DNA of 64,000 nt from a virus. Lineage: Duplodnaviria > Caudoviricetes. Made by a program: the position numbers and the translations under genes. The notes under the pieces were generated by a model, which saw nothing but the letters and a program-made list of their open reading frames with translations, had not been told where the DNA came from and did no database searches. Below, one piece after another: positions 6,615 through 31,803 of this stretch (position 1 is its first letter; every line of letters starts with the position of its first letter). Location of the stretch: IMG/VR virus record IMGVR_UViG_3300014208_000026, positions 128,001 through 192,000 of that record; one strand, written 5' to 3'.

Positions 6615-6652
6615 GTATACACCAGAGCGGGGAGGAATGAAACTGAAATCGT
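6615..6652 (-). promoter_or_regulatory. Conserved 38-bp accessory-operon promoter motif, copy 1 of 6
   Basis: Minus strand ACGATTTCAGTTTCATTC-N11-GGTGTATAC; TTTCAT-17 nt-TATACA spacing. Confidence 0.75.
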
Positions 6653-6665
6653 TTAGGCAGGAGGC

Positions 6666-7910
6666 TTAGTTCTTTGGAGTCTGAATAGAGAAGGAGGCCG
6701 CAGTCATCATTCGACGGGCGTAGTCCTGTACGAGCTGACGCATCTTGTCGAATCGGCAGTTTCCGATTCGGGCTTTGACGTGTTCCAGCGTTTGTTCGGA
6801 CAGATCGATGGACCTGCCTCGATAGAAGCTTTTGTCTACGAACATCCAGGCATAGCCAGAAGAAGTCTGGGCCCCGTTTGCCAGATTGAACAGTACGTGG
6901 GACACAGAGGTCATCAACTGGGCGTCGGTGAACTTTCCGTCCGCTACGTCCTCGATGATCTTTTTCATCTCTACGCAGGCGTCCTCTACGTTCTTGGGGT
7001 TGGTGGCTGCGTAGAGAACAGCCGTGCCGTTATCCCAGGAGCCCATCTCGAACATCGCGGTATCGTAGCACAGGCCCTTCTCTTCTCGAAGCCGAAGGAA
7101 CGCCAGGGAGTGCATTCCGCCGCCGATGAGATCCTGGGCAATATCATCGGCGTGGTGATTCAAACAGCTATCCTTGAAGGCGAGCCCTGGCATGAGGAGG
7201 GCTACATACGCCTGATCGGCTGCATGTTGGAAGAGGTGGGTTTTCGGGGAGGCCCACGTTCCGGTATCCGATTCGATTGTCGGAATGCTGTTTGGAGTGC
7301 CGGGTTCCAGGACGTATTGGTCCAGAACGATGGAGAGGTCGGGGTTTGCAGAGAGATCCCCGACCAGGGCTACAACTACGTTCTGTGCGGTGTAGTTGGC
7401 GGCCTTGTAGACTTTCAGGTCGTCCAGGGTCATATCGAGGATATCCTGGCGCTCACCGAGTGTTTCTCTGCCCAGGATAGGGCCGAAGTGGGCGGTCTCG
7501 GTCATGCCGAAGAAGTGGGAGGCGGGGTCATCCTCGAACCTCTGGCGTTCTTCCAGAATGACGTTCCGCTCTCGTTCGAATTCATCCTGGTCCAGGGAAG
7601 GCGTGAAGGCCATTTCGCAGAGGTAGCCGAGGGCTTCCAGGATCTTGTCGGGGGTAGTGTCGATGTAGAATGCGGTTCGGTCGTTGTCAGTGTAGGCGTT
7701 CGTGCTACCTATGGCCGCGATGAGGCGGTTCATCTCTTCATAGGATCTTTTCGCTGTCCCTTTGAAGATCATATGCTCCAGGAAGTGGGCCGTTCCCGAT
7801 CGCACGTCCTGGATGGAGCCTGAGTTGACGATGATGCGGACCGACACGACCGGTGTCGGCATATGATGCTTGATGACCCGGAACCGGCCGATTGTTTCTA
7901 CGACGGGCAT
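6666..7910 (-). CDS. M16 family zinc metallopeptidase (insulinase/pitrilysin-like)
   Basis: Inverted zinc motif HxxEH in GTAHFLEHMIFKGT; NAYTDNDRTAFY; ERNVILEE; C-terminal LREEKGLCY. Confidence 0.95.
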   Translation of the reverse strand: MPVVETIGRFRVIKHHMPTPVVSVRIIVNSGSIQDVRSGTAHFLEHMIFKGTAKRSYEEMNRLIAAIGSTNAYTDNDRTAFYIDTTPDKILEALGYLCEMAFTPSLDQDEFERERNVILEERQRFEDDPASHFFGMTETAHFGPILGRETLGERQDILDMTLDDLKVYKAANYTAQNVVVALVGDLSANPDLSIVLDQYVLEPGTPNSIPTIESDTGTWASPKTHLFQHAADQAYVALLMPGLAFKDSCLNHHADDIAQDLIGGGMHSLAFLRLREEKGLCYDTAMFEMGSWDNGTAVLYAATNPKNVEDACVEMKKIIEDVADGKFTDAQLMTSVSHVLFNLANGAQTSSGYAWMFVDKSFYRGRSIDLSEQTLEHVKARIGNCRFDKMRQLVQDYARRMMTAASFSIQTPKN

Positions 7911-8078
7911 GGCAGGATTCCTTTTCCGAAGGTTATTGCTCCGCTACTATACCCGAACGGAGGGATTCAGATTCGAGGGGAGTGGTTTCTCGTCAAAGGA
8001 GACGAGTTATGAGGGTGTTTCTGGTTTGTCTCGTCGTAGATTGCGAGTTAGCCTGTTTTCGGGAACCTTTTCTGGACG

Positions 8079-8101
8079 TATCTCGCAACGGTTGCGAGAT
8101 A
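8079..8101. repeat. Perfect inverted repeat with 11-bp arms
   Basis: TATCTCGCAAC-G-GTTGCGAGATA; TAGATTGCGAG direct repeats at 8037 and 8112. Confidence 0.85.
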
Positions 8102-8124
8102 GGTTGCTGGATAGATTGCGAGAT

Positions 8125-8640
8125 TCAGGCCAGGGCCCCGAGCAACAGGACCATGATCTCGTCGATCACGTCGGATTTAGCTCCAGGGCGGCCCTGACAG
8201 GTGGTCTTGACGAGTTTCTTGACGGCAGGGGTCTCATCCCTAAAGAGAATATAGACGTAGACCTCCCCCACCTTGGAAGCAGCGGCATTCGCGGGATCTA
8301 CGCGGGACAGGCTACCCGTTACTCCGACTGACACAGAGGCTCCGGTGCCCCTCATACCTACGGCGGCCATCTCTCGTGCTACCTCGAAGGAGTAGACAGA
8401 GTACTCCGCTATCTGTCTCTCCATGGTTCGTGCCCAAGCTCCTGTTTCGTCTACGGAGCGGGCCAGCCGGATTTTGGCCTCGTTGCAGTACACCACGAAC
8501 CCCTGTTTGAAGATCTCGCTGGCTCCAGGGATATCGGTGATTGCGTTCGCTAGTCCTCCACCGGTACAGGATTCGACCGTGGTGAGGGTGAGTTTCTTGG
8601 CGGCCAAGGTTTTGACAACCTCTTCAGCAAAATGGCTCAT
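8125..8640 (-). CDS. pncC: NMN deamidase (CinA C-terminal domain, PncC)
   Basis: TVESCTGG, PGAS, VVYCNEAK, EVAREMA and VGVTG motifs; the catalytic Ser and Lys positions of the family are retained. Confidence 0.92.
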   Translation of the reverse strand: MSHFAEEVVKTLAAKKLTLTTVESCTGGGLANAITDIPGASEIFKQGFVVYCNEAKIRLARSVDETGAWARTMERQIAEYSVYSFEVAREMAAVGMRGTGASVSVGVTGSLSRVDPANAAASKVGEVYVYILFRDETPAVKKLVKTTCQGRPGAKSDVIDEIMVLLLGALA

Positions 8641-8972
8641 TCAGGAACCTCTGTGTGGGCGGTTACAACTTGCTTGAAGCCCTGGTCTGTCAGCACCTTG
8701 TCCCCAAGGAGTATTTCCGAGACGAGGACCCAGCGGGGGTCTTGGCGGCCTCTCATGGTGAGAATCCGCAAGTCCTCGTCAGGTCTTGTTTCCAGGATTT
8801 CTTCCATGGACGTGATTTTGACCATGAAGTCATATCCGGACGGGCGGATTTCATCTCCGATGTTGACGTTTTGGGCTTCTGCCCAGGCGGGGTAGTTGGC
8901 TCCCTTTTTACAAACCCAGAGCTTGAAATTCGGGGTGAGTTTCCACTGGTTGTTGAACAGGATAGGGTTCAT
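8637..8972 (-). CDS. Small protein with degenerate Hint/intein-like segments
   Basis: ATGA overlaps at both ends; LTPNFKLWV...WAEAQNVNIGDEI and WVLVSEILLGDKVLT patterns. Confidence 0.7.
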   Translation of the reverse strand: MNPILFNNQWKLTPNFKLWVCKKGANYPAWAEAQNVNIGDEIRPSGYDFMVKITSMEEILETRPDEDLRILTMRGRQDPRWVLVSEILLGDKVLTDQGFKQVVTAHTEVPE

Positions 8973-10891: not shown

Positions 10892-10898
10892 TTTATTC

Positions 10899-11438
10899 TC
10901 AGCTTTCCAACAGCCGGTCGTACTCGGCCCACATGGCATCGCACACGCCAACGCTGTGGTAGGCGAGGTAGAAGGTTTTCCGCTCCTTGCGGTACATGTG
11001 GAACAGGCTACCGCGGTCCTGGAGGGTGGACCGGATGTTGGCAATGCGATCTGCCAGCTTCACCCTCATTCCGATTGGTACCGCGTCCCACTCTTCGTCA
11101 CTTAGAGGTGCTCTTTCATCTCGTTCTTCCCAAGCGGCGATGTCGCGGATAACAGCGGCATAGGTATCCCTTTTCCGCAGACGCCTGTTCGGCCCGAGTT
11201 CGTCCGTGGCAAACAGGACGGCACGGGCGACTGCGCTGCCGAAGATTCCCAGGAGAGTCGAGAATTCGGTTTTGGTGTCCTCCAGTACGTCGTGAAGGTA
11301 CGCCGCTGCTAGGGTCTCGTCGTCCGTGTACCCGAACTCCTTCAGCACCCCCACCACGCCATCCAGGTGGACAACGTAGGGCTCCGTGCCATATTTCTGA
11401 TCGCCGTGGGCTTTGATCGCAAACTCTCTCGCGTCCAT
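10899..11438 (-). CDS. RelA/SpoT-type HD hydrolase (stand-alone small alarmone hydrolase, Mesh1-like)
   Basis: AHGDQKY..EPYVVH, AAYLHDVLEDT and VKLADRIANIR motifs; no synthetase domain. Confidence 0.9.
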   Translation of the reverse strand: MDAREFAIKAHGDQKYGTEPYVVHLDGVVGVLKEFGYTDDETLAAAYLHDVLEDTKTEFSTLLGIFGSAVARAVLFATDELGPNRRLRKRDTYAAVIRDIAAWEERDERAPLSDEEWDAVPIGMRVKLADRIANIRSTLQDRGSLFHMYRKERKTFYLAYHSVGVCDAMWAEYDRLLES

Positions 11439-11466
11439 TTTCTAGAACCCTCCCTAGTCACTTCCC

Positions 11467-11504
11467 GTATACACCGAACCTGGAAGGAATGAAACTGAAA
11501 TCGT
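11467..11504 (-). promoter_or_regulatory. Conserved 38-bp motif, copy 2
   Basis: Plus strand GTATACACC-N11-GAATGAAACTGAAATCGT. Confidence 0.75.
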
Positions 11505-11510
11505 ACGCAG

Positions 11511-11966: not shown

Positions 11967-12003
11967 CGCAGCCTGCGCCTTTGTAGGGCCTCAGGCTATC
12001 ATT

Positions 12004-13170: not shown

Positions 13171-13267
13171 GGATTTGAACTCCGGCAGATTGTCCGTCCT
13201 CTATATACTCCATTCGGCGGTAAAGCGTCTATAGGTTTCGCTAGACAGGGAGCCAAAGGAAGAAACC

Positions 13268-13591: not shown

Positions 13592-13593
13592 CC

Positions 13594-17956: not shown

Positions 17957-18406
17957 GTGCCCATCTACGACTACCAGTGCTCCTGCGGGAAACAGTTCGA
18001 GAAGTCCGTCCGCTTTGCGGATAAGGACACCCCTCAGGAATGCCTCTGCGGAAAGAAAGTTCCTCGGGTTGGAGTGCCTGACACGGTAGCTTTCACGTTC
18101 AACCAGAAGACCTCCGGTATGGCTCCGCAGAACACGGGGGTTTCTTCTTTTGACGCCAACGCGGACAGGATCATCGGGACGGACGCCAAAGAGAAGTGGG
18201 CTCTCATCACCAAGAGGGTGAGGGACAAGCGGACCATTCTCCGTGACAACCCTGATGTGACTCCGGATCATATCACCCGATTGCCTGACGGGCACTATTC
18301 CCTTCAACCAGAACCTGAACGTCGGTCTCGGGCAGTTCTCAATAATGAGGCTATTGAAGCACTAAGAGTGAAGAGGGGCGCGACCTCTCCGACAACCTCC
18401 CGATAG
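17957..18406 (+). CDS. FmdB-type zinc-ribbon protein
   Basis: MPIYDYQCSCGKQFE...ECLCG signature. Confidence 0.8.
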   Translation: MPIYDYQCSCGKQFEKSVRFADKDTPQECLCGKKVPRVGVPDTVAFTFNQKTSGMAPQNTGVSSFDANADRIIGTDAKEKWALITKRVRDKRTILRDNPDVTPDHITRLPDGHYSLQPEPERRSRAVLNNEAIEALRVKRGATSPTTSR

Positions 18407-18522
18407 GGAGGACAGATAGATTCCCTAATGAAAACATGTTGTGCTGTTTGCGTTCCTCCTTCGGGAGGCCAGATGAAAATGGACGTGAGGTAATTGAACA
18501 ACTCTGTTGAGAGAGGTACAAA

Positions 18523-21500: not shown

Positions 21501-23991
21501 GTCCCCGTTGGACAGCAGTGCCGTGTTTGAGTTCGTTGCCACGGCGGCTCTTGCCGATGACTTCTCTCCCGTCGCCGGTATTTCTACGGATGATGCCACT
21601 GGTAAGGGTCAGGCCAAGATTATCGACGGTGCGGTGTCGACCTATTACTCGGACAGTAATGCCACGGAAGCGGCCCAGGATCGCTTGATCCTTCGTAACC
21701 GCCTTGTCCCTGGTAGTGCTCTGGGTAGCCCGTTGCCCTTCGCGGCCATGGCACAAACGGGTATTGAGGTTCTGGCGGGTTCGGCTAATGCCAAGGCGGG
21801 TCTCACCACAGGTTCTACGGGCGAGGCCGGTTGGAAGGCGACGGTTCTGCCTGCAACTCTGGTCGGTTCTGCCGTGGATACCGCCCTGACGGCTACCGTG
21901 CCTCAGGTTACGTTCTATGCTGATGGCGGCACTACGGATCAGAACAACATCTTCAAGTTCAATTTCGAAGGTACTCCTATTCAGGTTACCTTCGCAGATT
22001 CCACCGGAACGGCCATTGCGGCTGGAGCGTCGGCGGTTGTGCCTCTCTGCAATGACGGTGTCGCGACTGATTGGGTGGTTAAGCAGATCGCTGATGCCAT
22101 TGACACAGCCTTCGGTCTGGTTGCAGGCACTTCTCTGACCAACGGGTATGTTGCCCTCGAAGGAGATGCTGTCCGTTTCATGGGTAGTGTTTCCGATACC
22201 ACATCCGTAGTGACTATTGGGGCTGGTAATGCAAACTCCCTTCTGGGGTTCGTTGAAGGTACTACGGCGGTCCGCACTTCGGCTACGGCCAAGGCGATTG
22301 CCTCGGCTTGTATGAACCAGAACGATGTAACGGCTCCCGCTCTCACTGACTGGTTGAACACTAAGTTCACGGCGCCGGATGCTTCCAGTTTCGCAAAGGA
22401 GGCTCTGGCTTCCACGATCCTGGACGATGCTGGCCGTGAGTACTTGTTCTTCGAAAGCCAGGGTGCTCCTGGTGCTTACGGGTCCAGCACGAGCGTCTAC
22501 TGGACTGCCAGCATCACGGATTCCGTGCTTCTGCATGGGACTGGGGTCAATGCTGAAGTCGGTGATGGCGCTGTTGGTGACGACGGGGTCTCGGGCTACT
22601 TCGTGACCTCTTCGGTTTCTGACGGTTCGGGCTCGGCTAACACCTCTGTGTTCAATGCCGTTGCTGGTACCAGCTATGGTCAGGACGGCGTGGTTGGTCA
22701 GACCTATCGCGACGACGTTACGGGTCTGACGTTCACGGTTCTGCCTCTGGCTGGCGGGCAGAAGTACCCCACTGGGGTCAATGCCACGTTCCAGTTCCAG
22801 TGCCGTAAGACCTTTACGACGAATTCGAACATCCCGATCACGACGATCCCTGGTATCGAGCTTCTCGTGACGAACACCGCTTCGGTCGGGGCTGCGAACA
22901 CGGCCCTGCTTTCCACCTACCACCGGTCCGGCAATGAGCCTGGAATCGGGGAGTACTACTACGCGACCTACATTTACACGAAACAGAACTTCAGCACTGC
23001 TCTCTACACGAAGCTTTCGATCATCGAGCAGGCATTCGGAGAGACTAGCCCTGACAACCCCGTTTCCTTGGCCGCTCACCTTGCCATGCTGAACGGGGCG
23101 GTCATCGTCGGGATCAAGCAGATTCTGAAGGGCGAGAATGGGGTCCAGGGTACCGTGACGGCTTACAGGGATGCCATTGACGAACTCGAAGGTTCGCTCC
23201 CTGGTTCGGTCTACCCCGATATCCTGTGCTCGCTCCGTGGGGATAACCTGGAGCTGTACCAGTATCTCCTCCGGCACTGCGACTTGATGAGCAGCATCCG
23301 CTATCGGGCGGAGCGCACTGCGGTGTGCGGTACGGCCAGTGGCACCTCTCCGACCACGGTCCAGTCGTGGGCTCAGAACATCGGTGGGGCTCGGTTCCGC
23401 ATGATGTACCCCGATTCGGCCACGCTGAACCTGACGGATGCCCTGAACGTGACCACCGAATACTTGGTCGACGGTCCGTTCTTGGCTGCGGCTCAGATTG
23501 GGCGAGTTGCCTCTCCCAACGTGGACGTGGCGACTCCGTGGACCGGCATGAACCTCGTTGGGTTCACCGGCCTGGGTCGGAACCTCGATATCGTGACGAT
23601 GAACCAGATTGCTCAGAAGGGCGTCACGCTCGTCGAGTCTCGTCCCCCGAACCTGCGTATTCGGCACGGGCTCACGACTGACATGACCAACAATCTGACG
23701 AAGATCCCGACGATCTACCAGATCACCGATGAGGTCCAGCAGCGTACCCGTGACGCCATGGAGAAGTTCATCGGTGTCAAGTTCCTGCCGGGTATTCTGA
23801 GTCAGATCGAAGGTCGTCAGGCTCAGGTGTTCAAGTTCCTCGTGGACGCCCAGATCATCTCGGCTTACACGGGGATCCATGCGAGCATCGATCCTTCAAA
23901 TCCTACAACTGCGGACCTCAGCGCTGCATTTTCTCCTATCTTCCCCCTCGAAATGATCCTGGTCCGCTACTTTTTGCGGAGCAGCCTCTAG
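18523..23991 (+). CDS. Contractile tail sheath protein (1822 aa, large insertions)
   Basis: N-terminal YAPPGVYTETT; C-terminal sheath core (ERTAVCG, MNQIAQKGVTLV, LRIRHGLTT, DEV...FIG.K, DPSNPT...F.PIFPL..I). Confidence 0.9.
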   Translation: MGFPGKQYAPPGVYTETTTENPVSAVLTGLKLPVFMGEGNENLVQTALEVVRGSSASVDQQVVQEDMDGRAVVSISGTGVVTLGAFDGVLDRIQVRNFPLVSGDGTGVTTNSRNAVTVTINQQPIVIRAVTGVNGVIQLAQAPALGDVVRVTYFFDRTDTLTTDTVSGQVTTDPATIYGVVGVADVDVGGTETFDFLSTNNQLVLTVDREVQTTITIPVGSYSARMVGIILDSAGVGTLTATRYEDNFGKSAVVLVADNDITIGAGSANAVLGLVAGQTTARNRTFYTYNGPIVDGSNGGVTTTDPGTVTVRVDGTAVVPTSVDGSSRAVTLPYAPASGSTVTVTYYFNTWQDTFDYLAHIGVTDVTRCGITADRSDFVEGADFVLHDDKIVWGTAALVDAGTTVSGSGSFGSNQITPTLVDVRAYLETCNTVVDTSVTPSVVSKRVFQLPYQPTTGNGRSTPLGSSLFQSVSNNRIGLPTDRPDLVLAYWGYSVQDALSRGAVTVVKVDSTNSTFTLASDVPPDANVYATFYYNTITDATYTMTCVTPGASGIGTYTVQDSAGDDVYGLTYNTGSKGSSLTGIAIQFPSGSEYTPDFRFESGSQGPVEEAITVRFAATQDKLAKYATPGYGPYYPISGASDHVGLTVDAAAYNVDLSTPSGIAATGGGFFATLVGEEVVYTGGGTAGIVGRNFELDANEEFNLKLDGVTYTASFPMKAAATRTVADMASYINRAVVGETGAAQAGGAASITLASTASDVDDYYVGWTVFVKAGPANHDVRIITAYNGGTKVATVAYNFTGIPLITNTYTLRNIKSAMGVAQANIGGLSTVTLDTSASAVNDYYVGWKIFVTTALGVYYDEKTVTDYDGATKVATVSSAYGVLPAATDLYYLYDLTPVRAKYTAAGHFTGSYTVALASGFHTLRFTYTGFPTTAANVVATIADGTYTPSALAAAVGDAINKALRAHASFALDPPPTVDVTLNGSGQLEFAFTKSPLDSSAVFEFVATAALADDFSPVAGISTDDATGKGQAKIIDGAVSTYYSDSNATEAAQDRLILRNRLVPGSALGSPLPFAAMAQTGIEVLAGSANAKAGLTTGSTGEAGWKATVLPATLVGSAVDTALTATVPQVTFYADGGTTDQNNIFKFNFEGTPIQVTFADSTGTAIAAGASAVVPLCNDGVATDWVVKQIADAIDTAFGLVAGTSLTNGYVALEGDAVRFMGSVSDTTSVVTIGAGNANSLLGFVEGTTAVRTSATAKAIASACMNQNDVTAPALTDWLNTKFTAPDASSFAKEALASTILDDAGREYLFFESQGAPGAYGSSTSVYWTASITDSVLLHGTGVNAEVGDGAVGDDGVSGYFVTSSVSDGSGSANTSVFNAVAGTSYGQDGVVGQTYRDDVTGLTFTVLPLAGGQKYPTGVNATFQFQCRKTFTTNSNIPITTIPGIELLVTNTASVGAANTALLSTYHRSGNEPGIGEYYYATYIYTKQNFSTALYTKLSIIEQAFGETSPDNPVSLAAHLAMLNGAVIVGIKQILKGENGVQGTVTAYRDAIDELEGSLPGSVYPDILCSLRGDNLELYQYLLRHCDLMSSIRYRAERTAVCGTASGTSPTTVQSWAQNIGGARFRMMYPDSATLNLTDALNVTTEYLVDGPFLAAAQIGRVASPNVDVATPWTGMNLVGFTGLGRNLDIVTMNQIAQKGVTLVESRPPNLRIRHGLTTDMTNNLTKIPTIYQITDEVQQRTRDAMEKFIGVKFLPGILSQIEGRQAQVFKFLVDAQIISAYTGIHASIDPSNPTTADLSAAFSPIFPLEMILVRYFLRSSL

Positions 23992-24023
23992 TCCTTGATT
24001 TCATTCAGGTTTCCTAGTTTCTG

Positions 24024-24052
24024 TTGACTCAGGCTGCCATCGGGTCTATACT
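24024..24052 (+). promoter_or_regulatory. sigma70-type promoter
   Basis: TTGACT(24024)-17 nt-TATACT(24047). Confidence 0.7.
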
Positions 24053-24079: not shown

Positions 24080-25567
24080 ATGGGTGGTTGTAGATCCAAA
24101 GCGACTGTAGAAGAGATATTGGCAGCTTTCCATACCGATGAAGGTTTTAAGGCCGTAGCCAAACGTTTGGGTCTGTCTCCCAACACTCTTCGGCCTATAT
24201 GGCAAGAGAAATTCGGAGAAGACGCTTTCGTGAGTAGAGGGAAAGCCCTCCAAGCCCGAGCCGCAGCCAAGACCCTCAAGGAAACAGCAGGCAGTCGGGT
24301 CTATAAAAAGGAGACAGTTCCCTGTTCAAAATGCGGGATTCAAGTGTTGCTGAAAAAGACTCAAACGGCTCAGCTTAATTGGGAGGCTTTCGTCTGTGAT
24401 GCCTGTAAGTTTGATCGGGCCTGCCCGGTTTGCGGGCAACTCGTGGATGGCAAGAAGGGTCTTGCCATCCACTTCGGACACCAGCGAAATGCAGAGGACA
24501 AGGCACATACTATCTACCAGGAAACTTTGAGCGCCCGTTATTGGGGGGATCTTGTTGAAGGGGAGGACTTTGTCAGTTGTCTTTTTTGTGGTGCCCGAGT
24601 TAAAAGCTTGGTTTTGCATCTGACTGCCGCTCATGCCATGATGGTTGGGGCTTATCGAGAGAGATTCCCCGACGCCCCTATCCAGTCTCGTAAATGTTCG
24701 GAAGCCCGCTCGGAAGCTGCTCAGAACCGAGAAGACTACGGTAAAGGAGAAACTAAGGACATTATTTGTCCCGATTGCGGGGTGTCTTGGACGGGCTCTA
24801 AATTTCTAGCCCCTGAAATGCATGACCTTCGGTGCTCCTCTTGCCGTGACAAAGCTGAAAAACTTTTGAAACAAGAGACGGAGACTTATTGGGCTGGAAA
24901 AACAGAGCCAGATGATTATGTTGAGTGCCGATTGTGTGGGTGGAAAGGGTCGGTTATTTTGGGGCATGTCTTAGGAGCCCACCCTCAAGTTCCGATGCCA
25001 GAGTACAGGAAACAGTTTCCTGGTGCCCCACTGGCAGCTACCGGAGTGTTGACTTACCCTACCCATAGGATTGATCTTACCAAGGATGACCTTGAACCTT
25101 TCAAGGACGAGAAAGGTCGAGTACAAGTTGCTAAGGCAGCAGAAGCTCTCAACTGTTCGTGGGTTACGGTTCTCCACTATTGCAGAGAAACAGGTATTCC
25201 GACTCGAAACAAGTTGGCATTCCAGAAGTTGGTGCTAGATACTGTGTCTGGCCTTTTGGGGGAGCCCTACAAATGGGAGTGGCACGACCCCAGGATTGTG
25301 AACCCTCTGACAGGCTACTGTCTATTTTTTGATGGGTTTTTCTCAGGCCCCAATCTTTTGGTCGAGGTGCACGGAAGACAGCACGATGTTCAAGTGGATT
25401 ACTGGCACAAGACCAGAGATATTTTCGAGCAGATGCAAGAGAGAGATCATTTGAAAGCCAGAATGGCGGTCCAGTTGGGATTCAAGATGCTGACTATCCG
25501 TTGGAACGAGCCCTACACGGATGTGGGGTATCTGAGGAAGAAACTCGCTAGTATTGGCGTGCTGTAG
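24080..25567 (+). CDS. Free-standing endonuclease: HTH plus multiple zinc fingers (MucR-like) plus C-terminal DUF559/Vsr-like nuclease
   Basis: Start moved to ATG 24080 after AGGAG RBS; CLFCG...HLTAAH...YRERFPDAP and CRLCG...HVLGAH...YRKQFPGAP repeats; FFDGFF...LLVEVHGRQH...RDHLK. Confidence 0.8.
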   Translation: MGGCRSKATVEEILAAFHTDEGFKAVAKRLGLSPNTLRPIWQEKFGEDAFVSRGKALQARAAAKTLKETAGSRVYKKETVPCSKCGIQVLLKKTQTAQLNWEAFVCDACKFDRACPVCGQLVDGKKGLAIHFGHQRNAEDKAHTIYQETLSARYWGDLVEGEDFVSCLFCGARVKSLVLHLTAAHAMMVGAYRERFPDAPIQSRKCSEARSEAAQNREDYGKGETKDIICPDCGVSWTGSKFLAPEMHDLRCSSCRDKAEKLLKQETETYWAGKTEPDDYVECRLCGWKGSVILGHVLGAHPQVPMPEYRKQFPGAPLAATGVLTYPTHRIDLTKDDLEPFKDEKGRVQVAKAAEALNCSWVTVLHYCRETGIPTRNKLAFQKLVLDTVSGLLGEPYKWEWHDPRIVNPLTGYCLFFDGFFSGPNLLVEVHGRQHDVQVDYWHKTRDIFEQMQERDHLKARMAVQLGFKMLTIRWNEPYTDVGYLRKKLASIGVL

Positions 25568-25582
25568 ATAGGACGAGAAGAA

Positions 25583-26539
25583 CTAGATCACCGCAGGAAC
25601 GCCAGCCTTCATCAGGTCCGACTTTTCTTTCGTGAGCAGGCGGTCGAGAAGAACGGCCTGATCATGGGCTCCCGTAGTTTCCATCAAGTGGACGCAGAAG
25701 GACGCCACTAACATCGGGGTCGTGAGCTTCTTGGCGACGAGGGCCAGCAGAGCCTTGAATGCCATCGGGAAGCGGAGCGTGAAGCCAGCGGTCTTTACGT
25801 TAGTATCGGTGCTGGCCAGAACAGTAGCGGCCGGTTCAACATTCCCGAGGGCCACGAAATCCGACTTCTCACGGGTGAAGAGGCGGTCGACCAGAACGGC
25901 CTGATCGTGGTAACCCTTGGTTTCGAGCAGATAGACCACAAAGGCGGCCACCGTCAGGGGGTTCGGAAGTTTGGCGGCTACGACGCCCATTAGCGTCTTG
26001 AAAGCCATGGGGTAGTGGAACACAAAACCTGCTGTCTTCACTGCTGGAGCGCTGGCGGTCTTGTCCGCTTCAGGCTCCGCCTTCTTCAAGTCCCCCTTCT
26101 TCTGAGCGAGGATCTTGTCGATTTTAACTGCTTCCGCCGTGGCGCCCAGGACGTCCAGGAGGTGAACGCAGAAAGCTGCGGCAACCAGCGGGTTGGGCAT
26201 TTTCTTGGCAACCATGGCCAGGAGAGCCTTCTGAGCCGGATTCAGCTTGAGCTGGTAGGTCGGGCCGTCAGCAGCCTTCTTGGCAATGTCTTCGATCTTG
26301 CCTTTGTTGGCTTCCCACTTAGCTTTCGCTTCGGGGCTCATGCTATCCGTGGGGTCTTTGCCCGCCTTCTTGGCAATGTCTTCAATCTTGCCCTTGTTTG
26401 CTTCCCACTTGGCCTTGGCCTCGGGGCTCATGTTCTCGGTGGGGTCCGCTCCGGCGGTCTTGAGCACGCCGAGCAGTTCGGAGCGGAATTTCGGAAGGTC
26501 GTGAGCGAGTCGGACGATGGACGCACGAAGATTCTTCAT
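25583..26539 (-). CDS. Putative virion-internal repeat protein with N-terminal leader
   Basis: Leader shared with 578..1120; two 30-aa repeats and three roughly 65-aa repeats separated by KTA/KKA. Confidence 0.8.
   Translation of the reverse strand: MKNLRASIVRLAHDLPKFRSELLGVLKTAGADPTENMSPEAKAKWEANKGKIEDIAKKAGKDPTDSMSPEAKAKWEANKGKIEDIAKKAADGPTYQLKLNPAQKALLAMVAKKMPNPLVAAAFCVHLLDVLGATAEAVKIDKILAQKKGDLKKAEPEADKTASAPAVKTAGFVFHYPMAFKTLMGVVAAKLPNPLTVAAFVVYLLETKGYHDQAVLVDRLFTREKSDFVALGNVEPAATVLASTDTNVKTAGFTLRFPMAFKALLALVAKKLTTPMLVASFCVHLMETTGAHDQAVLLDRLLTKEKSDLMKAGVPAVI
26274..26446 (-). repeat. Coding tandem repeat, 90-bp period, two copies
   Basis: DPT(E/D)(N/S)MSPEAKAKWEANKGKIEDIAKKA twice; DNA copies begin at 26274 and 26364. 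Confidence 0.9.
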
Positions 26540-26560
26540 AGGATGTTTCTCCCTTAGGTT

Positions 26561-26581
26561 CTACTAAGGGAAAGGCTATAG
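26561..26581 (-). promoter_or_regulatory. Putative late promoter CTAT-N11-TAGTAG
   Basis: Minus strand CTATAGCCTTTCCCTTAGTAGAACCTAAGGGAGAA closely matches 538-571. Confidence 0.6.
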
Positions 26582-26596
26582 GGGGAAAATTGAACG

Positions 26597-26773: not shown

Positions 26774-26774
26774 G

Positions 26775-27290
26775 CTAGGCACTCTCCCTTTCTTCGGGGT
26801 ACTTCAGGAAGCGTTCTTCCCGTTCCTCTTCGTGGCGGATTCGGCAGGGGAACTGCCAGAACCCGTAGTGATCGAGGTGACCCTTGCCATACGAGAGGTT
26901 CTCGGCGATATCGCTGGAAGTACCGCAATCAAGGTCCCCACAGGTTGGGATACCACGGGGCATTTCGGAGTCTGCCGACCTGGGATGGTTCCGACAGATT
27001 TGGTTCCAGGTGTCCTGGCGGAGAGCCCTACATAGCGGGTCGGTACACTTGAAGTTTCGGATTCCGTGGGTACGGCACCCGAGGATCTTTTCGAGCAGGT
27101 AGTACAGGACGGGGTACTGATGAAGCTTGTCGGCGTCGGTCTGGTATCCGACCACTGCGGACTGCCAGTCTCCGTGACGGAGCCACAGGCAGACGTCTCG
27201 GGCGACACCACTGTTGTACCGGTACAGCCGACAGCAGTTCTCTATGCCGTCAGCATAGACTTTCTGCAGTTCGAGCGAGGGAGTGTCCAT
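26775..27290 (-). CDS. Cys-rich hypothetical protein
   Basis: Start reassigned to MDTPSL downstream of motif copy 3. Confidence 0.65.
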   Translation of the reverse strand: MDTPSLELQKVYADGIENCCRLYRYNSGVARDVCLWLRHGDWQSAVVGYQTDADKLHQYPVLYYLLEKILGCRTHGIRNFKCTDPLCRALRQDTWNQICRNHPRSADSEMPRGIPTCGDLDCGTSSDIAENLSYGKGHLDHYGFWQFPCRIRHEEEREERFLKYPEERESA

Positions 27291-27324
27291 AGTGCTCTGG
27301 TCCGTCAGTCTATCCACGTTTTCT

Positions 27325-27360
27325 ATATACGCCAAAGCGGGCCGGAATGAAACAGAAATC
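27325..27360 (-). promoter_or_regulatory. Conserved motif, copy 3
   Basis: Plus strand ATATACGCC-N11-GAATGAAACAGAAATC. Confidence 0.7.
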
Positions 27361-27748
27361 AGACCGCCATTTGTCCACGAACGAGTCGGATTGTTTCTTC
27401 TGGTGTGTTGGCTTCGACGGGAGCACATTCTGCCCAGCGACCCTGGAAACAACCTGCCGTGACACTGACCCAGAACTGAAGGTAGGTTTCCTTTTTCTTG
27501 TCGGTGCAGGCATAGACCTCACGCTGTTTCTTGTCAAGTTTCCAGGTGTACTGCGGGAAAGCGGCACGGACAGCAGTGCAAAGGTCTTCGTAGTCCTGGT
27601 CAGCGGCTTTGCGGGCTTCCTCTTGCAGAGCCTTTTTGTCCCTCAAAAGATTGGAGTCTTTGATGTTGAGTGAGGAGAAAACGGCTAGAGCTTCATTCGA
27701 AGGCAGGGTCCACGTGTAGGGTTTCTTGGCCCAATCGGTCAGGTGCAT
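27359..27748 (-). CDS. Hypothetical protein
   Basis: 129-aa ORF in a tightly packed operon. Confidence 0.7.
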   Translation of the reverse strand: MHLTDWAKKPYTWTLPSNEALAVFSSLNIKDSNLLRDKKALQEEARKAADQDYEDLCTAVRAAFPQYTWKLDKKQREVYACTDKKKETYLQFWVSVTAGCFQGRWAECAPVEANTPEETIRLVRGQMAV

Positions 27749-27751
27749 GAT

Positions 27752-27985
27752 CTAGTCTCCTTCTTTTTTCGGGTGAGCACACTTGGGGCAATAAACAGTA
27801 TGGCCCATCATCATAGCGAAGAATCCAACGGTGTATCCCCAGCCATCCTTCTCGTTTGCCTGTTCGCAGGCTTCGAGTTCCGGTGCTGCGGATTGTACCG
27901 AATAGGACTTGGATTTCGTTCCGCAAGTGTCGCAGGTCAGAATGCCCGACCGTTTCTTGCCTTTGCCCGTCACGTCAACGCCCAT
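27752..27985 (-). CDS. Small zinc-ribbon protein
   Basis: CDTC...CPKC. Confidence 0.7.
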   Translation of the reverse strand: MGVDVTGKGKKRSGILTCDTCGTKSKSYSVQSAAPELEACEQANEKDGWGYTVGFFAMMMGHTVYCPKCAHPKKEGD

Positions 27986-27991
27986 GTTCGT

Positions 27992-28750
27992 TTAACTCCC
28001 CTGCTGTCCGAAGATATCTGTGATGGTTGGAGCCCTGTGGTTCTGCCACAGGACCTCGACAGATTTCTTCCCGCCCGTTTTTGATTCGTTCGCTTTGATG
28101 GAACCGAATTCTTGAAAGGGGAGCCAATCGGTCCCTTCGGCTCCGTTTTCGCAAACCAGTACTTGACCTTTTCTGGTTTTGCACCAATCACCGAGGGCCT
28201 GGAAGTCGATATCTTTAGAACTGCACCGGTAGCTTTTCCCGGCTTTCAAGTACGGGGGATCGATGAAGTAAGTCGCCTCAAGGTCGGGAGTAGTCTCGTA
28301 GGAGCCCTGCTGGATTGTCCAGTGCCGAATGTGCTGTACTTGATCTGCGATTCTTCGACGAACGGTGTTCCCCCAGTCGGAGTTCGGTCGAATTCCGCTT
28401 TTCATCCACGTTGAAGGTGTCTTGCAAGGAGTAGGGGAACCACGGTTGATCCAGAAACCGATCAGCCAACGTGCCTCTTGCGGCAGTTCCGGAAAGTCGT
28501 CAGTGCTCTGGTCTGGCCCGAGATCAGGGAGGGCCAAGATTTCTTCGGGTGTGACGTGGATGAGGTAATCCCAGAGGCCGCAGATCACCTCATACTTGTC
28601 GACGAGGATTATCCTACGGTCGGAGTAGCGAAGGGAGTAACCCGCGGCACCGGCAAACGGCTCGATGATCGTGTCATGAATAGGTGCGGGGTAGCGAGGT
28701 GCGGCTCTCCACTTGCCCCCGTAGTAGAGAAAGAACGGTTTCAGGTTCAC
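27992..28750 (-). CDS. DNA adenine methyltransferase (Dam-like, D12 class), orphan
   Basis: FLYYGGK, IEPFAGAAG (SAM-binding motif I) and FIDPPY (catalytic motif IV). Confidence 0.92.
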   Translation of the reverse strand: MNLKPFFLYYGGKWRAAPRYPAPIHDTIIEPFAGAAGYSLRYSDRRIILVDKYEVICGLWDYLIHVTPEEILALPDLGPDQSTDDFPELPQEARWLIGFWINRGSPTPCKTPSTWMKSGIRPNSDWGNTVRRRIADQVQHIRHWTIQQGSYETTPDLEATYFIDPPYLKAGKSYRCSSKDIDFQALGDWCKTRKGQVLVCENGAEGTDWLPFQEFGSIKANESKTGGKKSVEVLWQNHRAPTITDIFGQQGS

Positions 28751-28752
28751 AT

Positions 28753-29928
28753 CTACTCCTTGATTAACCCCAGTTCCCGAAGAGCCGTAAAGACAAGCTT
28801 CATTTCCTGCTTCTGGAAAGCCCCAGACAAAGCCCGCAGTACAGGAACCTTCCCCACCACGGTGATATCGAGTCCCGTTGCCTCGTAAGCAGTCCGGACC
28901 TTATCGTGCCAGCGGATCTTGGAAGTCACAATCCCCACGGCTTTCTCGATTGTACCCAAGCTGGCGTCAACCTGCGACTGGTTGAATTCCTCCAGGAGAA
29001 GTTTCACGGTTCCTTCGACGGTTGGCTCAGGAGAAGATTCCAGCAGGTTCCACACGGTCGGGAGGATTCGAGACAGAGGGATAGTGTCGGACGCCCAGTG
29101 AATGCATTCCACACCCTCGGGCTTGGCCTTGTAGAGGTGCCACTTCTGCTCTGCATCCCGGAGGTAAAGAACATAACCCTCGGTCCCGTCGATGAAGGTT
29201 TGATCCCCTTCTGTTACCTTCTTGTTCGTGGCTTCCGCCTCGGTCCGCAGCTTGTTGTAGAAAGCAATAAGGTCTGCCCCGCTGGTCAGACGTGCCGCAG
29301 GTTGCAGGACAACCGGATTGGTCTTGTCAAACTGGTCGTTGGGGATCACGGAGGCAGTCTTCTGGTTCACCCCGAACAGAAGTTTCGTTGCCAGGGACTC
29401 GGGGTAGCGGATCAGGTGGGTGTTGCGTTGGCCGTACATTTCGAACGAGAGACCCAGATTCTCGTCGACGAGAGCAACGAGAGCCCGCAGGCTTTCGTTC
29501 GTGTCGAGGAGTTCCTGCCACATGGAGCGGAACGGCCCGAAGCGGGATTCCGTCAGCACGGGGGTCAGGCGGGTCTTGAAAGAGGTGAAACGATTCCCCT
29601 GTGAATTCGCGTAGTTATAAGCGAACACGTTAGACCCGTCCAATTTCAAAAACGCGATTACGTCCTGAGCGGGGGGAAAGTGGTATGACCGAGTTCCCAG
29701 GTCCGTGGAGCCAAAGGGATAGTGAAGCTTGGGGGTTCCATAGATCACTTGGGGCTCAGGCAAGTCTGCCCCTGCCACTTTGAAAAGAACCATAGCGCCG
29801 TAGCGATGGTCTGACTGGTGGCAGAGGTACCCTTCGAGGACTTGATTCCCATTGAAGGTGTCCGGTACCTCGAAGGGAGCCAGGACCGAGGTCTTGCAGT
29901 CAAGTAGTTGGGCGGCACGTTCCAGCAT
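28753..29928 (-). CDS. RNA ligase, T4 Rnl1-like nucleotidyltransferase
   Basis: Motif [31 protein letters not shown]. Confidence 0.8.
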
Positions 29929-29965
29929 TTCTTTTGTCTCCTACCGTTCCAGCCAGTCTTTTTCT

Positions 29966-30003
29966 ATATACGCCATCCCGCTGGAAAAGGAAACTGAAAT
30001 CGT
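29966..30003 (-). promoter_or_regulatory. Conserved motif, copy 4
   Basis: Plus strand ATATACGCC-N11-AAAGGAAACTGAAATCGT. Confidence 0.75.
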
Positions 30004-30031
30004 CCGGCTCTGGAGACGGTATAGTAGAGGC

Positions 30032-30604
30032 ATGGCAAAGTGGTTTGTCTACGTAATTCAAAGCAGGGCGCCTCGGTACTCGAAATCGGGGAAGCCTCTG
30101 CCTGGATTCTTTTACGTCGGGTGTACAACGGATCCTGTCAGGAGACTCCGCGAACACAATGGTGAGCTAGCCAACGGAGGGAAATACACCTCTAAACATA
30201 GACCTTGGGTCCCGCGTGCTTTGTTCAAGTTTTACGCTGACCGTCGAGAAGCCATGAAAGCAGAGTACGCCCTGAAGCACGGCAAGCGAGGGATTGCCCG
30301 TACTCAATGGACGCCCGAGGATTCTGTTTGGTGCAGGGGGTTGGGGCCGGATGACCCTTGGGTCTTGTGCGGAGGGGCTAGGCTAGCCTCGGAAATTGAA
30401 CAGGTTCCTGACGAGTTCGGAATCGCTGTAGACGAGGCCATAGATTCCGAAACCCAGGGCTGCGAGGCTCACCAGCATGACGAGGAAGTCAGGGCCGATG
30501 GTCTCTTGCCGTCGGATGATCTCAAGGGCAGTCTTGATGCATCCGAACAGCCCGAAGCCGAAAAGCACAGTCCAGCAAAAGACAACGAAGGCGGGGTCGG
30601 TTGA
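30032..30604 (+). CDS. GIY-YIG endonuclease, SLX1/UPF0213-like
   Basis: Start at ATG 30032 after GAGG; VYVIQS...[18 protein letters not shown]...GGKYT...RPW. Confidence 0.88.
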
Positions 30605-30655
30605 GGTCGTGATCTCGTTCAGTCCCATTTTCATCTCCCTTGGGTTAGGTTCCAT
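30383..30655 (-). CDS. Small two-TM membrane protein
   Basis: Two hydrophobic segments; directly follows motif copy 5. Confidence 0.7.
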
Positions 30656-30666
30656 CTACACCTAAG

Positions 30667-30704
30667 GTATACACCGTCGAAGGTGAAAATGAAACTGGAA
30701 TCGT
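30667..30704 (-). promoter_or_regulatory. Conserved motif, copy 5
   Basis: Plus strand GTATACACC-N11-AAATGAAACTGGAATCGT. Confidence 0.75.
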
Positions 30705-30725
30705 CAGTTAGAGATCGGGCAGGAA

Positions 30726-31718
30726 TCAAGACACGTAGCTGCTGAGCTTTGACACGGCCCGATTCGTGATCAGGGTGTTCGGGCCCATGATCGCCGAGTT
30801 GAAACGGTTTTCGTTCCGCTTCTCAGGAGAGCCGTTAGCTCCGGCCAAGTGGGTGACCCACTGCGTGACGGCGTTCATGGCGGCCCAACCGGTGCCCGCG
30901 ACTCCCGGGATATCCTGACCGATACCGTTTTCGAACAGGAGCCGAAGTTCGGTTCGACGGAGGGACGCCTGGAGGTTACTGGCTCCGAGCTTGACGGGAT
31001 CGGGGAGGACGTGCAGAGCAAACTCGTCCCACTTCTTCTCGTCGATCTGGACCTTGGCGAACGCCGTCATCAGTTCGCCGTAGGCCGCGTATTCCTTTTC
31101 GGCGATCCCGAGAATCTCACGGGCTTTTTCCAGTTTTCCCATGATGTTCACCGAGTGCTGAAGGCTCACGGTCCGCCCAGGTTCACGGCTGTTCATGGCC
31201 AGCGTCATAGTATTCGCGCACACTACGCGAATCGGCGTCATGAATACCTTGAGGGATCCCGTGCCGTCGTGGGTGTTGCAGAGCAGGACGAAACGTCCGA
31301 CTGCATCCCCCTTGACCGGCTCGATGACTCCAGGCAGTTGGGCCAGCAGCCAGACCTTACGCCCCTCGAAGAGGGATCCGGCGGTATGATACCTCATCTG
31401 GCCGATGGTCACCAAGCTGTCCATCAGGGAGAGAGCGGTCTCGTTCTGGATTTCGCGATAGCGGTTTCCGACGATCCCGAGGATCTTGCTGTCGGAGGCA
31501 CGACGAATGGCAAAGTTGCCATTCACCATGTCATGCGTGAGGGAGGTGTTGTCCTGGGTTCGCGTCTCGACGAAGAGCGGCACCCGTTCCACCTTCCAGT
31601 CCAGTCCCGCGAGTTGCAGAACGTCGTTGGAAAGGATCGGCTCCTCCCCCACGTACGTCCCCTTGCCATGCCATGGAGTTGCGCCTGCGAATAGCAACGA
31701 CTCTACTTGGTCCGACAT
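30726..31718 (-). CDS. DUF932 family protein (phage/plasmid TIGR03299-like)
   Basis: MSDQVESL...TPWHGKG, LDWKVE, VGNRY..IQNE, TAGSL..GRKVWL, NTHDGTGS, PIRVVCANT. Confidence 0.9.
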   Translation of the reverse strand: MSDQVESLLFAGATPWHGKGTYVGEEPILSNDVLQLAGLDWKVERVPLFVETRTQDNTSLTHDMVNGNFAIRRASDSKILGIVGNRYREIQNETALSLMDSLVTIGQMRYHTAGSLFEGRKVWLLAQLPGVIEPVKGDAVGRFVLLCNTHDGTGSLKVFMTPIRVVCANTMTLAMNSREPGRTVSLQHSVNIMGKLEKAREILGIAEKEYAAYGELMTAFAKVQIDEKKWDEFALHVLPDPVKLGASNLQASLRRTELRLLFENGIGQDIPGVAGTGWAAMNAVTQWVTHLAGANGSPEKRNENRFNSAIMGPNTLITNRAVSKLSSYVS

Positions 31719-31765
31719 TTTCGTATCTCCCCTCGTCAGTCCAGTTTTCAACCCTCACGTTTTCT

Positions 31766-31803
31766 GTATACGCCAAGTCGGTGGAAAATGGAACTGAAAT
31801 CGT
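31766..31803 (-). promoter_or_regulatory. Conserved motif, copy 6
   Basis: Plus strand GTATACGCC-N11-AAATGGAACTGAAATCGT. Confidence 0.75.

What the first reader, a model, noticed from the sequence alone, without database searches (positions are those of the whole stretch)
6615..31803. Six-copy 38-bp motif heads every minus-strand accessory cassette
Seen: copies at 6615, 11467, 27325, 29966, 30667 and 31766, all on the minus strand with invariant spacing; consensus GATTYCWGTTYC-MTTY-N11-GGYGTATAY. It contains a tandem hexamer (TTTCAG-TTTCAT) and a -35/-10-like 17-nt spacing with non-canonical hexamers. In five copies it begins within about 25 nt of, or overlaps, the stop codon of the upstream gene, with no obvious terminator. 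Known: repeated early-promoter cassettes (PeSL elements) drive modular shuffling in some T4-type phages. Inference: an activator-dependent early promoter that may also act as a recombination joint for exchanging anti-host gene cassettes.
Basis: partly seen in the sequence, partly recalled or inferred. Interest (0 to 1): 0.75.

Follow-up and report, generated by a model that had tools for sequence, protein, structure and literature searches.

The report
Repeated promoter of a huge groundwater phage
The six-copy motif is real and is most likely a phage-specific promoter placed in front of many small non-structural genes of an uncultivated, roughly half-megabase groundwater phage; this is ordinary phage biology with a new sequence, and its suggested second role as a gene-swapping joint is not shown.

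Summary
The window holds six exact copies where chance predicts none. The 257-kb contig holds 19. About 115 kb fetched from two contigs of a co-occurring related phage, Ga0172379, hold 40 more.

All 19 contig copies lie between genes and point at the gene downstream, whose start codon follows 21-52 nt later in 18 of them. The conserved footprint is about 49 bp: CGATTYCA-GTTTCATT, a C/T-rich 12-nt spacer, GGYGTATAY, then a conserved G. This matches a sigma-type promoter: TTTCAT at -35, a 17-nt spacer, TATAYM at -10, and +1 at the conserved G. T at -7 occurs in only 1 of 59 copies, and the -35 box is unlike the TTGACA promoters the phage also carries. I therefore infer that a phage-specified factor is needed; which one is unknown.

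"Heads every minus-strand cassette" is overstated, because other minus-strand genes in the window carry two other phage promoter-like motifs. The PeSL-like recombination idea is neither shown nor excluded. There is no stem-loop, no sigma70 consensus and no read joints. However, near-identical copies sit in unrelated contexts more often than chance predicts.

I rate it a new member of a known kind, of moderate-to-low interest.

The parts
6602..6651 (-). Class A promoter copy 1. The upstream box CGATTTCA and -35 box GTTTCATT sit at the 6651 end, and the -10 box GGTGTATAC follows. The predicted +1 is the G at 6607. It serves the 87-aa ORF 6318-6581.
11454..11503 (-). Class A promoter copy 2, predicted +1 at 11459. 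It serves the HD-domain phosphohydrolase gene 10899-11438, followed by the 640-aa, 111-aa and CinA-like genes.
27312..27361 (-). Class A promoter copy 3, predicted +1 at 27317. It overlaps the stop codon of gene 27359-27748 and serves the 171-aa ORF 26775-27290.
29953..30002 (-). Class A promoter copy 4 (its -35 box reads GTTTCCTT), predicted +1 at 29958. It serves the 391-aa ORF 28753-29928, followed by a DNA-methyltransferase-like gene at 27992-28750.
30654..30703 (-). Class A promoter copy 5, predicted +1 at 30659. It serves the 81-aa ORF 30383-30628, which I judged membrane-like by eye.
31753..31802 (-). Class A promoter copy 6 (its -35 box reads GTTCCATT), predicted +1 at 31758. It serves the DUF932 gene 30726-31718.
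24024..24052 (+). Host-type promoter, TTGACT-17 nt-TATACT, in front of the Ros/MucR-domain gene. Two relatives have the same arrangement. TTTC(A/C/T) repeats lie just upstream at 23997-24023.
24080..25567 (+). 495-aa protein with a Ros/MucR zinc-finger DNA-binding domain. It is a candidate early regulator, but its link to the motif is inferred only.
26561..26581 (-). A different phage promoter-like motif (class B, CTATAG-N10-TAGTAG) serving minus-strand gene 25583-26539. It shows that not every minus-strand gene uses the six-copy motif.
32386..32391 (-). TATATA preceded by ATCGGG (class C, an extended -10-like motif). It heads the minus-strand cluster at gene 32011-32352. Similar sites lie near 13202-13207 and 7946-7951.
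30032..30604 (+). GIY-YIG nuclease-domain ORF on the opposite strand, between copies 4 and 5. It looks like a free-standing homing-endonuclease-like gene.

Best explanation
The motif is a phage-specific promoter, called class A here, read by a multi-subunit bacterial-type RNA polymerase through a sigma-family recognition geometry. The parts are an upstream box CGATTYCA (-44 to -37), a -35 box GTTTCATT, a 17-nt C/T-rich spacer, an extended -10 box GGYG-TATAYM, and a start at a conserved G that opens a GTGAG-like leader.

It sits directly in front of many small non-structural genes. These include ORFans, an HD hydrolase, DUF932, a ligase, and VWA and AAA proteins. It often sits only a few bases after the previous gene's stop codon with no terminator, so each cassette receives its own initiation on top of read-through.

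The -35 box is unlike the TTGACA promoters in the same genome, and T at -7 is almost absent. I therefore infer that the host primary sigma alone does not read it well. A phage-specified factor, either an activator bound to the 16-bp tandem-hexamer box or a replacement sigma, would direct polymerase to it. That would make it a delayed-early or middle class, analogous to T4 MotA-dependent promoters.

Shown here: the motif exists, and its position, orientation, geometry and conservation are as described. Inferred: transcription starts there, its timing, and the need for and identity of a factor.
For: Six exact copies are in the window against 0 expected. The contig holds 19 copies against about 1 expected in shuffles.

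All 19 are intergenic, although only 7% of the contig is intergenic. All point at the next gene, with 21-52 nt from GTATA to the start codon in 18 of 19.

Forty more copies were found in about 115 kb of two Ga0172379 contigs; 32 of them have a co-oriented called gene starting within 120 nt. These contigs share only a few genes with ours, at 68-83% amino-acid identity. They are covered differently in a second groundwater run (0.86 versus 0.34 of sampled words), so they are probably a distinct relative.

The 59-copy profile shows near-invariant GTTTCATT and GGYGTATA, a fixed 12-nt gap, and G in 50 of 59 copies exactly 7 nt after TATAYM.

In the one alignable block, two copies keep their cores while the surrounding DNA is 72% identical.

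The genes served are non-structural in both phages. Structural genes carry a different motif.

Host-type TTGACA-N17-TATAnT promoters exist in the same genome, which shows that class A is a separate class.
Against: No transcription start or RNA data could be obtained, so promoter activity is inferred from sequence alone.

No sigma region 2 and no RNA polymerase gene was found in the contig, and about half the genome is missing. The reading enzyme and factor are therefore unknown.

The two DNA-binding candidates found are conserved far more widely than the motif, and relatives carrying them lack the motif in the DNA fetched. These are the 201-aa protein with two sigma-region-4-like domains and the Ros/MucR-domain protein.

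The divergent pair at contig 7225-7281 and one other copy lack the upstream CGATTYCA box, so that half is not obligatory.
Confidence: 0.75

Rival explanations
1. Besides being a promoter, the motif is a PeSL-like portable joint. Homologous recombination between copies would swap, duplicate or excise the cassettes between them.
For: Copies form dense one-per-gene arrays in gene-variable regions; ten copies lie 0.7-2.5 kb apart in L091. Spacer sequences, which are not constrained by the consensus, are near-identical between copies in unrelated contexts more often than column shuffling allows: 14 pairs at 10/12 or better against a mean of 3.8 and a maximum of 12 in 300 shuffles. In three such pairs the similarity is confined to about 50 bp with random flanks on both sides. 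In the one alignable block, homology with the relative starts about 25 nt 5' of a copy. Only 1 of 32 motif-headed genes of the relative has a homolog in our contig. The two phages co-occur in the same samples.
Against: There is no stem-loop or terminator upstream and no sigma70 consensus, so the defining PeSL parts are missing. No read or contig joints fall at motif positions, though only assembled contigs of two runs were available. No close enough relative exists to place indels. Other genes of the relative are equally unshared (8 of 198). Spacer similarity could reflect functional constraint or simple promoter duplication. The one homology boundary lies outside the motif, at a gene border, where module borders are expected anyway.
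Confidence: 0.15
2. It is a plain early promoter read by the host primary sigma factor without any phage factor. The odd hexamers would simply reflect the unknown host's preferences.
For: The geometry is exactly that of a sigma70-family promoter. Other phage promoter-like sites in the genome share the G-N-G-TATA form of the -10 region.
Against: The same genome carries canonical TTGACA-N17-TATAnT promoters, one of them conserved in two relatives. That suggests the host reads the usual consensus. Class A has TTTCAT at -35, T at -7 in only 1 of 59 copies, and an extra conserved 8-bp box upstream.
Confidence: 0.1
3. It is a promoter for a phage-encoded RNA polymerase, or a complete phage sigma factor, encoded in the missing half of the genome.
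For: CheckV rates the contig only 49% complete. The motif is long and highly conserved, as promoters of phage-specific enzymes are.
Against: A bipartite motif with a variable fixed-length spacer is typical of sigma-dependent recognition rather than of single-subunit polymerases. No polymerase domain was found in 257 kb.
Confidence: 0.1
4. It is not a promoter but an array of binding sites for a repressor, silencer or other DNA-binding protein, for example the Ros/MucR-domain protein.
For: The Ros box half-site TATATTTCA (PMC9779718) shares ATTTCA with the upstream box. TTTCA-like repeats also lie upstream of the Ros/MucR-like gene's own promoter here and in L113.
Against: The -10-like half and the conserved +1 G have no role in such a model. 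The strict orientation and fixed distance to start codons in 59 copies point to initiation.
Confidence: 0.05

Closest known systems
T4 middle promoters (MotA box plus sigma70 -10 element; sigma appropriation by MotA and AsiA; PMC2988021, PMC6755090)
   Same: This is a phage-specific class in which a conserved box replaces the host -35 element while a TATA-type -10 element is kept. It serves pre-replicative, non-structural genes, many copies lie inside co-directional gene runs, and a host-type promoter class exists alongside it.
   Different: The box sequence differs: CGATTYCAGTTTCATT against the MotA box, which I recall as TGCTTtA. The -10 element lacks T at -7. No MotA or AsiA homolog was looked for or found, and no factor is known here.
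PeSL cassettes of T4-type phages (PMC2839356, PMC4122927)
   Same: Both are short repeated regulatory sequences in front of many small, variable genes. Near-identical copies occur in unrelated contexts.
   Different: PeSLs are defined as a strong sigma70-consensus early promoter with an AT-rich upstream region plus a stem-loop terminator. Here there is no stem-loop and no sigma70 consensus, and no indels or circles bounded by copies have been seen.
phiEco32 middle/late promoters read by the phage sigma gp36 (AATGTA centred at -11.5; PMC12276001)
   Same: Both are phage-specific promoters whose -10 region contains TGTA, and both are read by host core polymerase with a phage-specified factor.
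   Different: The phiEco32 motif is a single short element. Class A is bipartite with a strong -35 region box. No gp36-like protein with a sigma2-like domain was found in the contig.
ECF-sigma promoters such as Bacillus subtilis SigW (TGAAAC-N16-CGTA; from memory, not checked)
   Same: The gap between the two boxes is 16 nt when counted from GTTTCA to YGTA, and the -10 region has a CGTA/TGTA core.
   Different: The -35 box here is the reverse complement of TGAAAC, not the same sequence, and no ECF sigma with region 2 was found. This resemblance is only a lead.

Membership tests
Sigma-family (bacterial RNA polymerase) promoter | Two conserved boxes at about -35 and -10, separated by 16-18 nt | tested here: met
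   TTTCAT, 17 nt, then TATAYM, with invariant spacing in 59 copies
Sigma-family (bacterial RNA polymerase) promoter | A purine start site 6-8 nt after the -10 hexamer, upstream of and co-oriented with a gene | tested here: met
   G in 50 of 59 copies 7 nt after the hexamer. All 19 contig copies are co-oriented, and 18 lie 21-52 nt before a start codon with a Shine-Dalgarno-like sequence. This is sequence evidence only.
Sigma-family (bacterial RNA polymerase) promoter | A mapped transcription start | not testable with these tools
   No RNA run is listed for this DNA, and the host is uncultivated.
Primary-sigma (sigma70 consensus) promoter | TTGACA-like -35 box and TATAAT-like -10 box with A at -11 and T at -7 | tested here: not met
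   The -35 box is TTTCAT (2 of 6 matches). T at -7 occurs in 1 of 59 copies. The consensus scan does not report the copies.
PeSL (promoter-early stem-loop) cassette | Strong sigma70-consensus early promoter with an AT-rich upstream region | tested here: not met
   The upstream region is CGATTYCA, not an AT-rich tract.
PeSL (promoter-early stem-loop) cassette | An adjacent stable stem-loop that acts as a terminator | tested here: not met
   Upstream 60-mers fold like random genomic 60-mers (means -11.4 and -14.5 against -14.2 kcal/mol; p=0.25). T-runs occur in 5 of 59. No minus-strand terminator-like site precedes the window copies.
PeSL (promoter-early stem-loop) cassette | Indels between close relatives bounded by copies, and circles formed between copies | tested here: inconclusive
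   No sufficiently close relative is available. One homology border lies about 25 nt 5' of a copy. No joints at copies appear in the contigs of two runs. Spacer families exceed chance.
T4-type MotA-dependent middle promoter | MotA box at -30 and MotA/AsiA proteins | not tested
   The box sequence is different by eye. No search for MotA or AsiA homologs was run.

The most novel reading that the evidence does not exclude
The class A element is both the target of a new kind of sigma-appropriation-like switch and a portable joint. In the first role, a phage protein reads the tandem hexamers in place of the host -35 contact; candidates are the family-wide protein with two sigma-region-4-like domains or the Ros/MucR zinc-finger protein. 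In the second role, this huge-phage lineage exchanges and duplicates accessory gene cassettes at the element, making it a stem-loop-free counterpart of PeSLs outside the T4 group.
Probability: 0.1. Interest if true: 0.6.

Novelty: new member of a known kind. Interest (0 to 1): 0.35.

Why it matters
Huge phages are known almost entirely from metagenomes, and their transcription programmes are unmapped. It also marks about 60 genes as probable early or middle genes and offers a defined DNA target for testing the phage's DNA-binding proteins. If the copies also act as exchange points, they would help explain how such large phages turn over accessory genes. As it stands, the finding is a well-supported but conventional one: a phage-specific promoter.

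Tried and rejected
- **N4-like phage:** the 3443-aa ORF first suggested an N4-like phage. I rejected this because the record is a 257-kb fragment rated 49% complete and the giant ORF has no Pfam hit.
- **GenBank phages:** megablast of the region found no match.
- **IMG/VR motif scans:** the strict motif gave 0 hits. The loose core gave 56 single hits in unrelated contigs of other base composition, which I judged to be chance.
- **Possible variant motif:** a scan for GCTCAAY-N12-GGCGTAGTA, seen twice in L113, gave 40 single hits, again judged chance.
- **Relatives of motif-headed genes:** the 391-aa gene has no relative in IMG/VR. The nearest homologs of the DUF932 gene are only 42-45% identical, and one such contig (L106) lacks the motif.
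- **Searching the Ga0172379 contigs whole:** these records are not held.
- **Reads:** only assembled contigs of two groundwater runs could be laid, and no joints fell at motif copies. The loose ends at motif copies turned out to be the relative's own copies. No RNA holder is listed.
- **Same genome or relative:** I considered that the Ga0172379 contigs are the missing half of this genome, since 257+190+90 kb is close to the 525 kb implied by CheckV. The different word shares in run X2 (0.34 against 0.86) and the uniform 68-83% identity of shared genes argue for a separate relative. This is not settled.
- **Sigma and polymerase searches in the contig:** no Sigma70_r2, T7-type RNAP, beta or beta' domain was found.
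- **Fold of the sigma-like protein:** the 201-aa protein (pLDDT 79) matched only sigma region 4 domains in the PDB, with no whole-protein match.
- **RNA genes:** Rfam and tRNA scans of the window found nothing.
- **The gap at 30002-30382:** as RNA it folds no better than shuffles.
- **Minus-strand ORF 18304-23880:** this 1858-aa ORF is a shadow of the plus-strand gene 18523-23991.
Full report
**What the window is.** The window is bases 128001-192000 of a 257,181-bp IMG/VR virus record that CheckV rates 49% complete. That implies a phage of roughly half a megabase. The DNA is held in two groundwater metagenome runs. GC content is about 55%.

I made my own gene calls with a codon model trained on the contig. 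Coding density is 93%. The long minus-strand ORF 18304-23880 is a shadow of the plus-strand gene 18523-23991.

**The observation.** Dinucleotide shuffles gave none.

A search of the whole contig with the core GTTTCATT-N12-GGYGTATA finds 19 copies, against about one expected.
- Every copy lies in an intergenic gap, although gaps make up only 7% of the contig.
- Every copy points at the next gene.
- In 18 of 19 the start codon follows 21-52 nt after GTATA and is preceded by a Shine-Dalgarno-like sequence.
- One pair sits back to back between divergent genes, a VWA protein and an AAA ATPase, so that their -35 boxes form the palindrome AATGAAAC-A-GTTTCATT.
I confirmed those copies.

**Copies elsewhere.**
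- Exact-pattern scans of IMG/VR found nothing beyond chance singletons.
- The one scan of JGI metagenome contigs found the motif many times in two contigs of one assembly, Ga0172379_10000149 (190 kb) and Ga0172379_10000580 (90 kb).
- The roughly 115 kb fetched around those hits holds 40 copies, and 32 have a co-oriented called gene starting within 120 nt. In one stretch (L091) ten copies lie 0.7-2.5 kb apart.
- These contigs have the same GC content. They share only a handful of genes with ours, at 68-83% amino-acid identity.
- They could in principle be the missing half of the same genome. However, a second run (X2) holds 86% of their sampled words against 34% for our window, and divergence is uniform across unlinked shared genes. 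I therefore treat them as a co-occurring relative, with about 75% confidence.
- More distant relatives, found through shared proteins, do not carry the motif in the DNA fetched (L106, L110-L113).

**Anatomy.** I built a profile of all 59 copies. Numbering from the conserved G taken as +1:

| Element | Position | Conservation |
|---|---|---|
| CGATTYCA (upstream box) | -44 to -37 | conserved, absent from 3 of the 19 contig copies |
| GTTTCATT (-35 box) | -36 to -29 | nearly invariant |
| C/T-rich spacer | between the boxes | variable sequence, fixed length |
| YT-GGYG | ends at -13 | conserved |
| TATAYM (-10 box) | -12 to -7 | TATA invariant |
| G, usually followed by TGAG | +1 | G in 50 of 59 copies |

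Read this way the motif is TTTCAT, 17 nt, TATAYM, then 6 nt and a purine start, which is exactly the geometry of a sigma-family promoter. All six window copies have the G at the predicted +1: 6607, 11459, 27317, 29958, 30659 and 31758. The upstream box is missing from the divergent pair and one other copy, so the core promoter is the GTTTCATT-N12-GGYGTATAY part.

**Why it is probably not read by the host primary sigma alone.** The same genome carries canonical TTGACA-N17-TATAnT promoters. One is in the window at 24024-24052, and two relatives of different GC content have the same arrangement. The host polymerase therefore presumably recognises the usual consensus. Class A shares only TT with TTGACA, has T at -7 in just 1 of 59 copies, and carries an extra conserved box. 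That pattern suggests a phage-specified activator or replacement sigma, by analogy with T4 MotA-dependent middle promoters (PMC2988021, PMC6755090) or the phiEco32 gp36 promoters, whose -10 region reads AATGTA (PMC12276001). This step is inference.

**Other promoter-like classes, and the word 'every'.** K-mer enrichment in upstream regions and inspection show two more phage motifs.
- Class B is a T-rich tract, CTATAG, about 10 nt, then TAGTAG. The contig holds roughly 20 copies, mostly before structural-type genes. The motif also occurs in distant relatives just downstream of their sigma-like gene. Other first readers noted it as a late-type motif (e1-5401235, e1-5401266).
- Class C is CGATnGRG-TATAKW, with about 10 copies.

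In the window, the minus-strand cluster 32352 to 25583 opens with class C (near 32391), then has four class A copies, and ends with class B (26561-26581) before gene 25583-26539. The cluster 13170 to 4699 opens with class C (near 13207), has class A at 11502, class C near 7951 and class A at 6650. Class A therefore heads many minus-strand cassettes but not all of them.

**What the promoter serves.**
- In our contig: an HD phosphohydrolase, DUF932, VWA and AAA_5 proteins, DUF3228, a GmrSD_N-like protein, an NAD-dependent ligase and several ORFans.
- In the relative: an HNH endonuclease, an RNA ligase, a ChlI-like protein and many ORFans of 68-180 aa.
- None looks structural, which fits an early or middle class. 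'Anti-host' remains a guess.

**Candidate factors.**
- No RNA polymerase domain and no sigma region 2 was found in the contig.
- One 201-aa protein (contig 61623-62228), next to a NusG-like gene, has two tandem sigma-region-4-like helix-turn-helix domains. Its model (pLDDT 79) matches only region 4 structures.
- That protein has more than 1300 homologs at 55-63% identity with invariant recognition helices. In relatives it sits after the clamp loader, primase and RecA-like genes and before structural genes. It is a family-wide core gene, much more widespread than the motif, so a specific link to class A is doubtful.
- The window gene 24080-25567 encodes a 495-aa protein with a Ros/MucR zinc-finger domain under the conserved host-type promoter. 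It has 35 homologs, and the nearby genes are syntenic in the two carrier contigs I fetched.
- TTTCA-like repeats lie upstream of its promoter here, and CGATTTCAG lies upstream of it in L113. The Ros box half-site is TATATTTCA (PMC9779718).
- This makes the Ros/MucR-domain protein a testable candidate for binding the upstream box, but the evidence is thin, and its relatives' contigs lack class A.

**The recombination idea.** PeSLs are defined by a strong sigma70-consensus promoter with an AT-rich upstream tract plus a stem-loop terminator, by indels bounded by copies between close relatives, and by circles (PMC2839356, PMC4122927).

Points against:
- The stem-loop is absent and the promoter is not of the sigma70 consensus, so this is not a PeSL.
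- No joints fall at copies, though only contigs of two runs could be laid.
- The single homology border lies at a gene boundary, outside the motif.
- Genes not headed by the motif are equally unshared with the relative.
- Spacer similarity may reflect constraint or simple duplication.

Hints in favour of exchange at copies:
- The 12 spacer positions, free in the consensus, are near-identical between copies far more often than column shuffling allows.
- In three such pairs similarity is confined to about 50 bp with unrelated flanks, within and between the two phages.
- In the one alignable block, homology starts about 25 nt 5' of a copy.

I give this reading about 15%.

**Verdict.** This is a real, strongly non-random element conserved between two related phages, and it is best read as a phage-specific promoter class for non-structural genes. 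The sequence is new and so far confined to this phage and one close relative. The kind of element is well known.

Noticed in passing
window 24080-25567 (+), promoter at 24024-24052: A 495-aa protein with a Ros/MucR zinc-finger domain sits under a host-type TTGACT-17-TATACT promoter. The gene, its promoter and the preceding genes (396 aa, 149 aa, 1822 aa) are syntenic in relatives L112 and L113. TTTCA-like repeats lie just upstream of the promoter. The Ros/MucR family is described as alphaproteobacterial, which hints at the host.
   Followed up: partly
window 30032-30604 (+): A GIY-YIG nuclease-domain ORF lies antisense between two motif copies and overlaps the 81-aa minus-strand gene 30383-30628. 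It may be a free-standing homing-endonuclease-like insertion.
   Followed up: partly
window 26561-26581 (-), 2226-2246 (-), 33073-33092 (+); about 20 sites in the contig: A second phage motif consists of a T-rich tract, CTATAG, about 10 nt, then TAGTAG. It lies 9-30 nt before start codons of mostly structural-type genes. It is also present in distant relatives (L110 10646 and 14948; L111 4029). It is probably a late promoter with a conserved leader.
   Followed up: partly
window near 7946-7951, 13202-13207 and 32386-32391 (-); about 10 sites in the contig: A third motif, CGATnGRG followed by TATAKW, has no -35 box. It opens the minus-strand clusters at divergent intergenic regions.
   Followed up: no
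contig 61021-62228 (L009:749-1956), outside the window: A NusG-like gene is followed by a 201-aa protein with two tandem sigma-region-4-like domains and no region 2. It has more than 1300 homologs at 55-63% identity with invariant recognition helices. It always lies between the replication genes (clamp loader, primase, RecA-like) and the structural genes.
   Followed up: partly
window 18304-23880 (-) versus 18523-23991 (+): Two overlapping ORFs of about 1850 aa lie on opposite strands. Codon scoring favours the plus-strand one, and relatives have a 1769-1772-aa gene at that place. The minus-strand ORF is a shadow.
   Followed up: yes
L087:2372-2460 (Ga0172379_10000149): The leader after one motif copy in the relative contains a GGAAC pentanucleotide repeat of about seven units before the start codon.
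   Followed up: no
contig 228823-228870 (upstream of the copy at 228788): A perfect 21-bp hairpin (-35 kcal/mol) lies just upstream of one motif copy. It is the only copy with such a structure.
   Followed up: no
L113:11913 and 14474 (-): Two intergenic copies of GGCTCAAY-N12-GGCGTAGTA lie before minus-strand genes in a GC-richer relative. They have the same spacing as class A and could be a diverged version of it. An IMG/VR scan for this pattern gave only chance singletons.
   Followed up: partly
window 50006-60337 (+): A 3443-aa ORF has no Pfam match. Neighbouring ORFs of 1402, 1117, 918 and 799 aa are also large, and no Pfam family was found for the two of them that I scanned (1402 and 1117 aa).
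   Followed up: no
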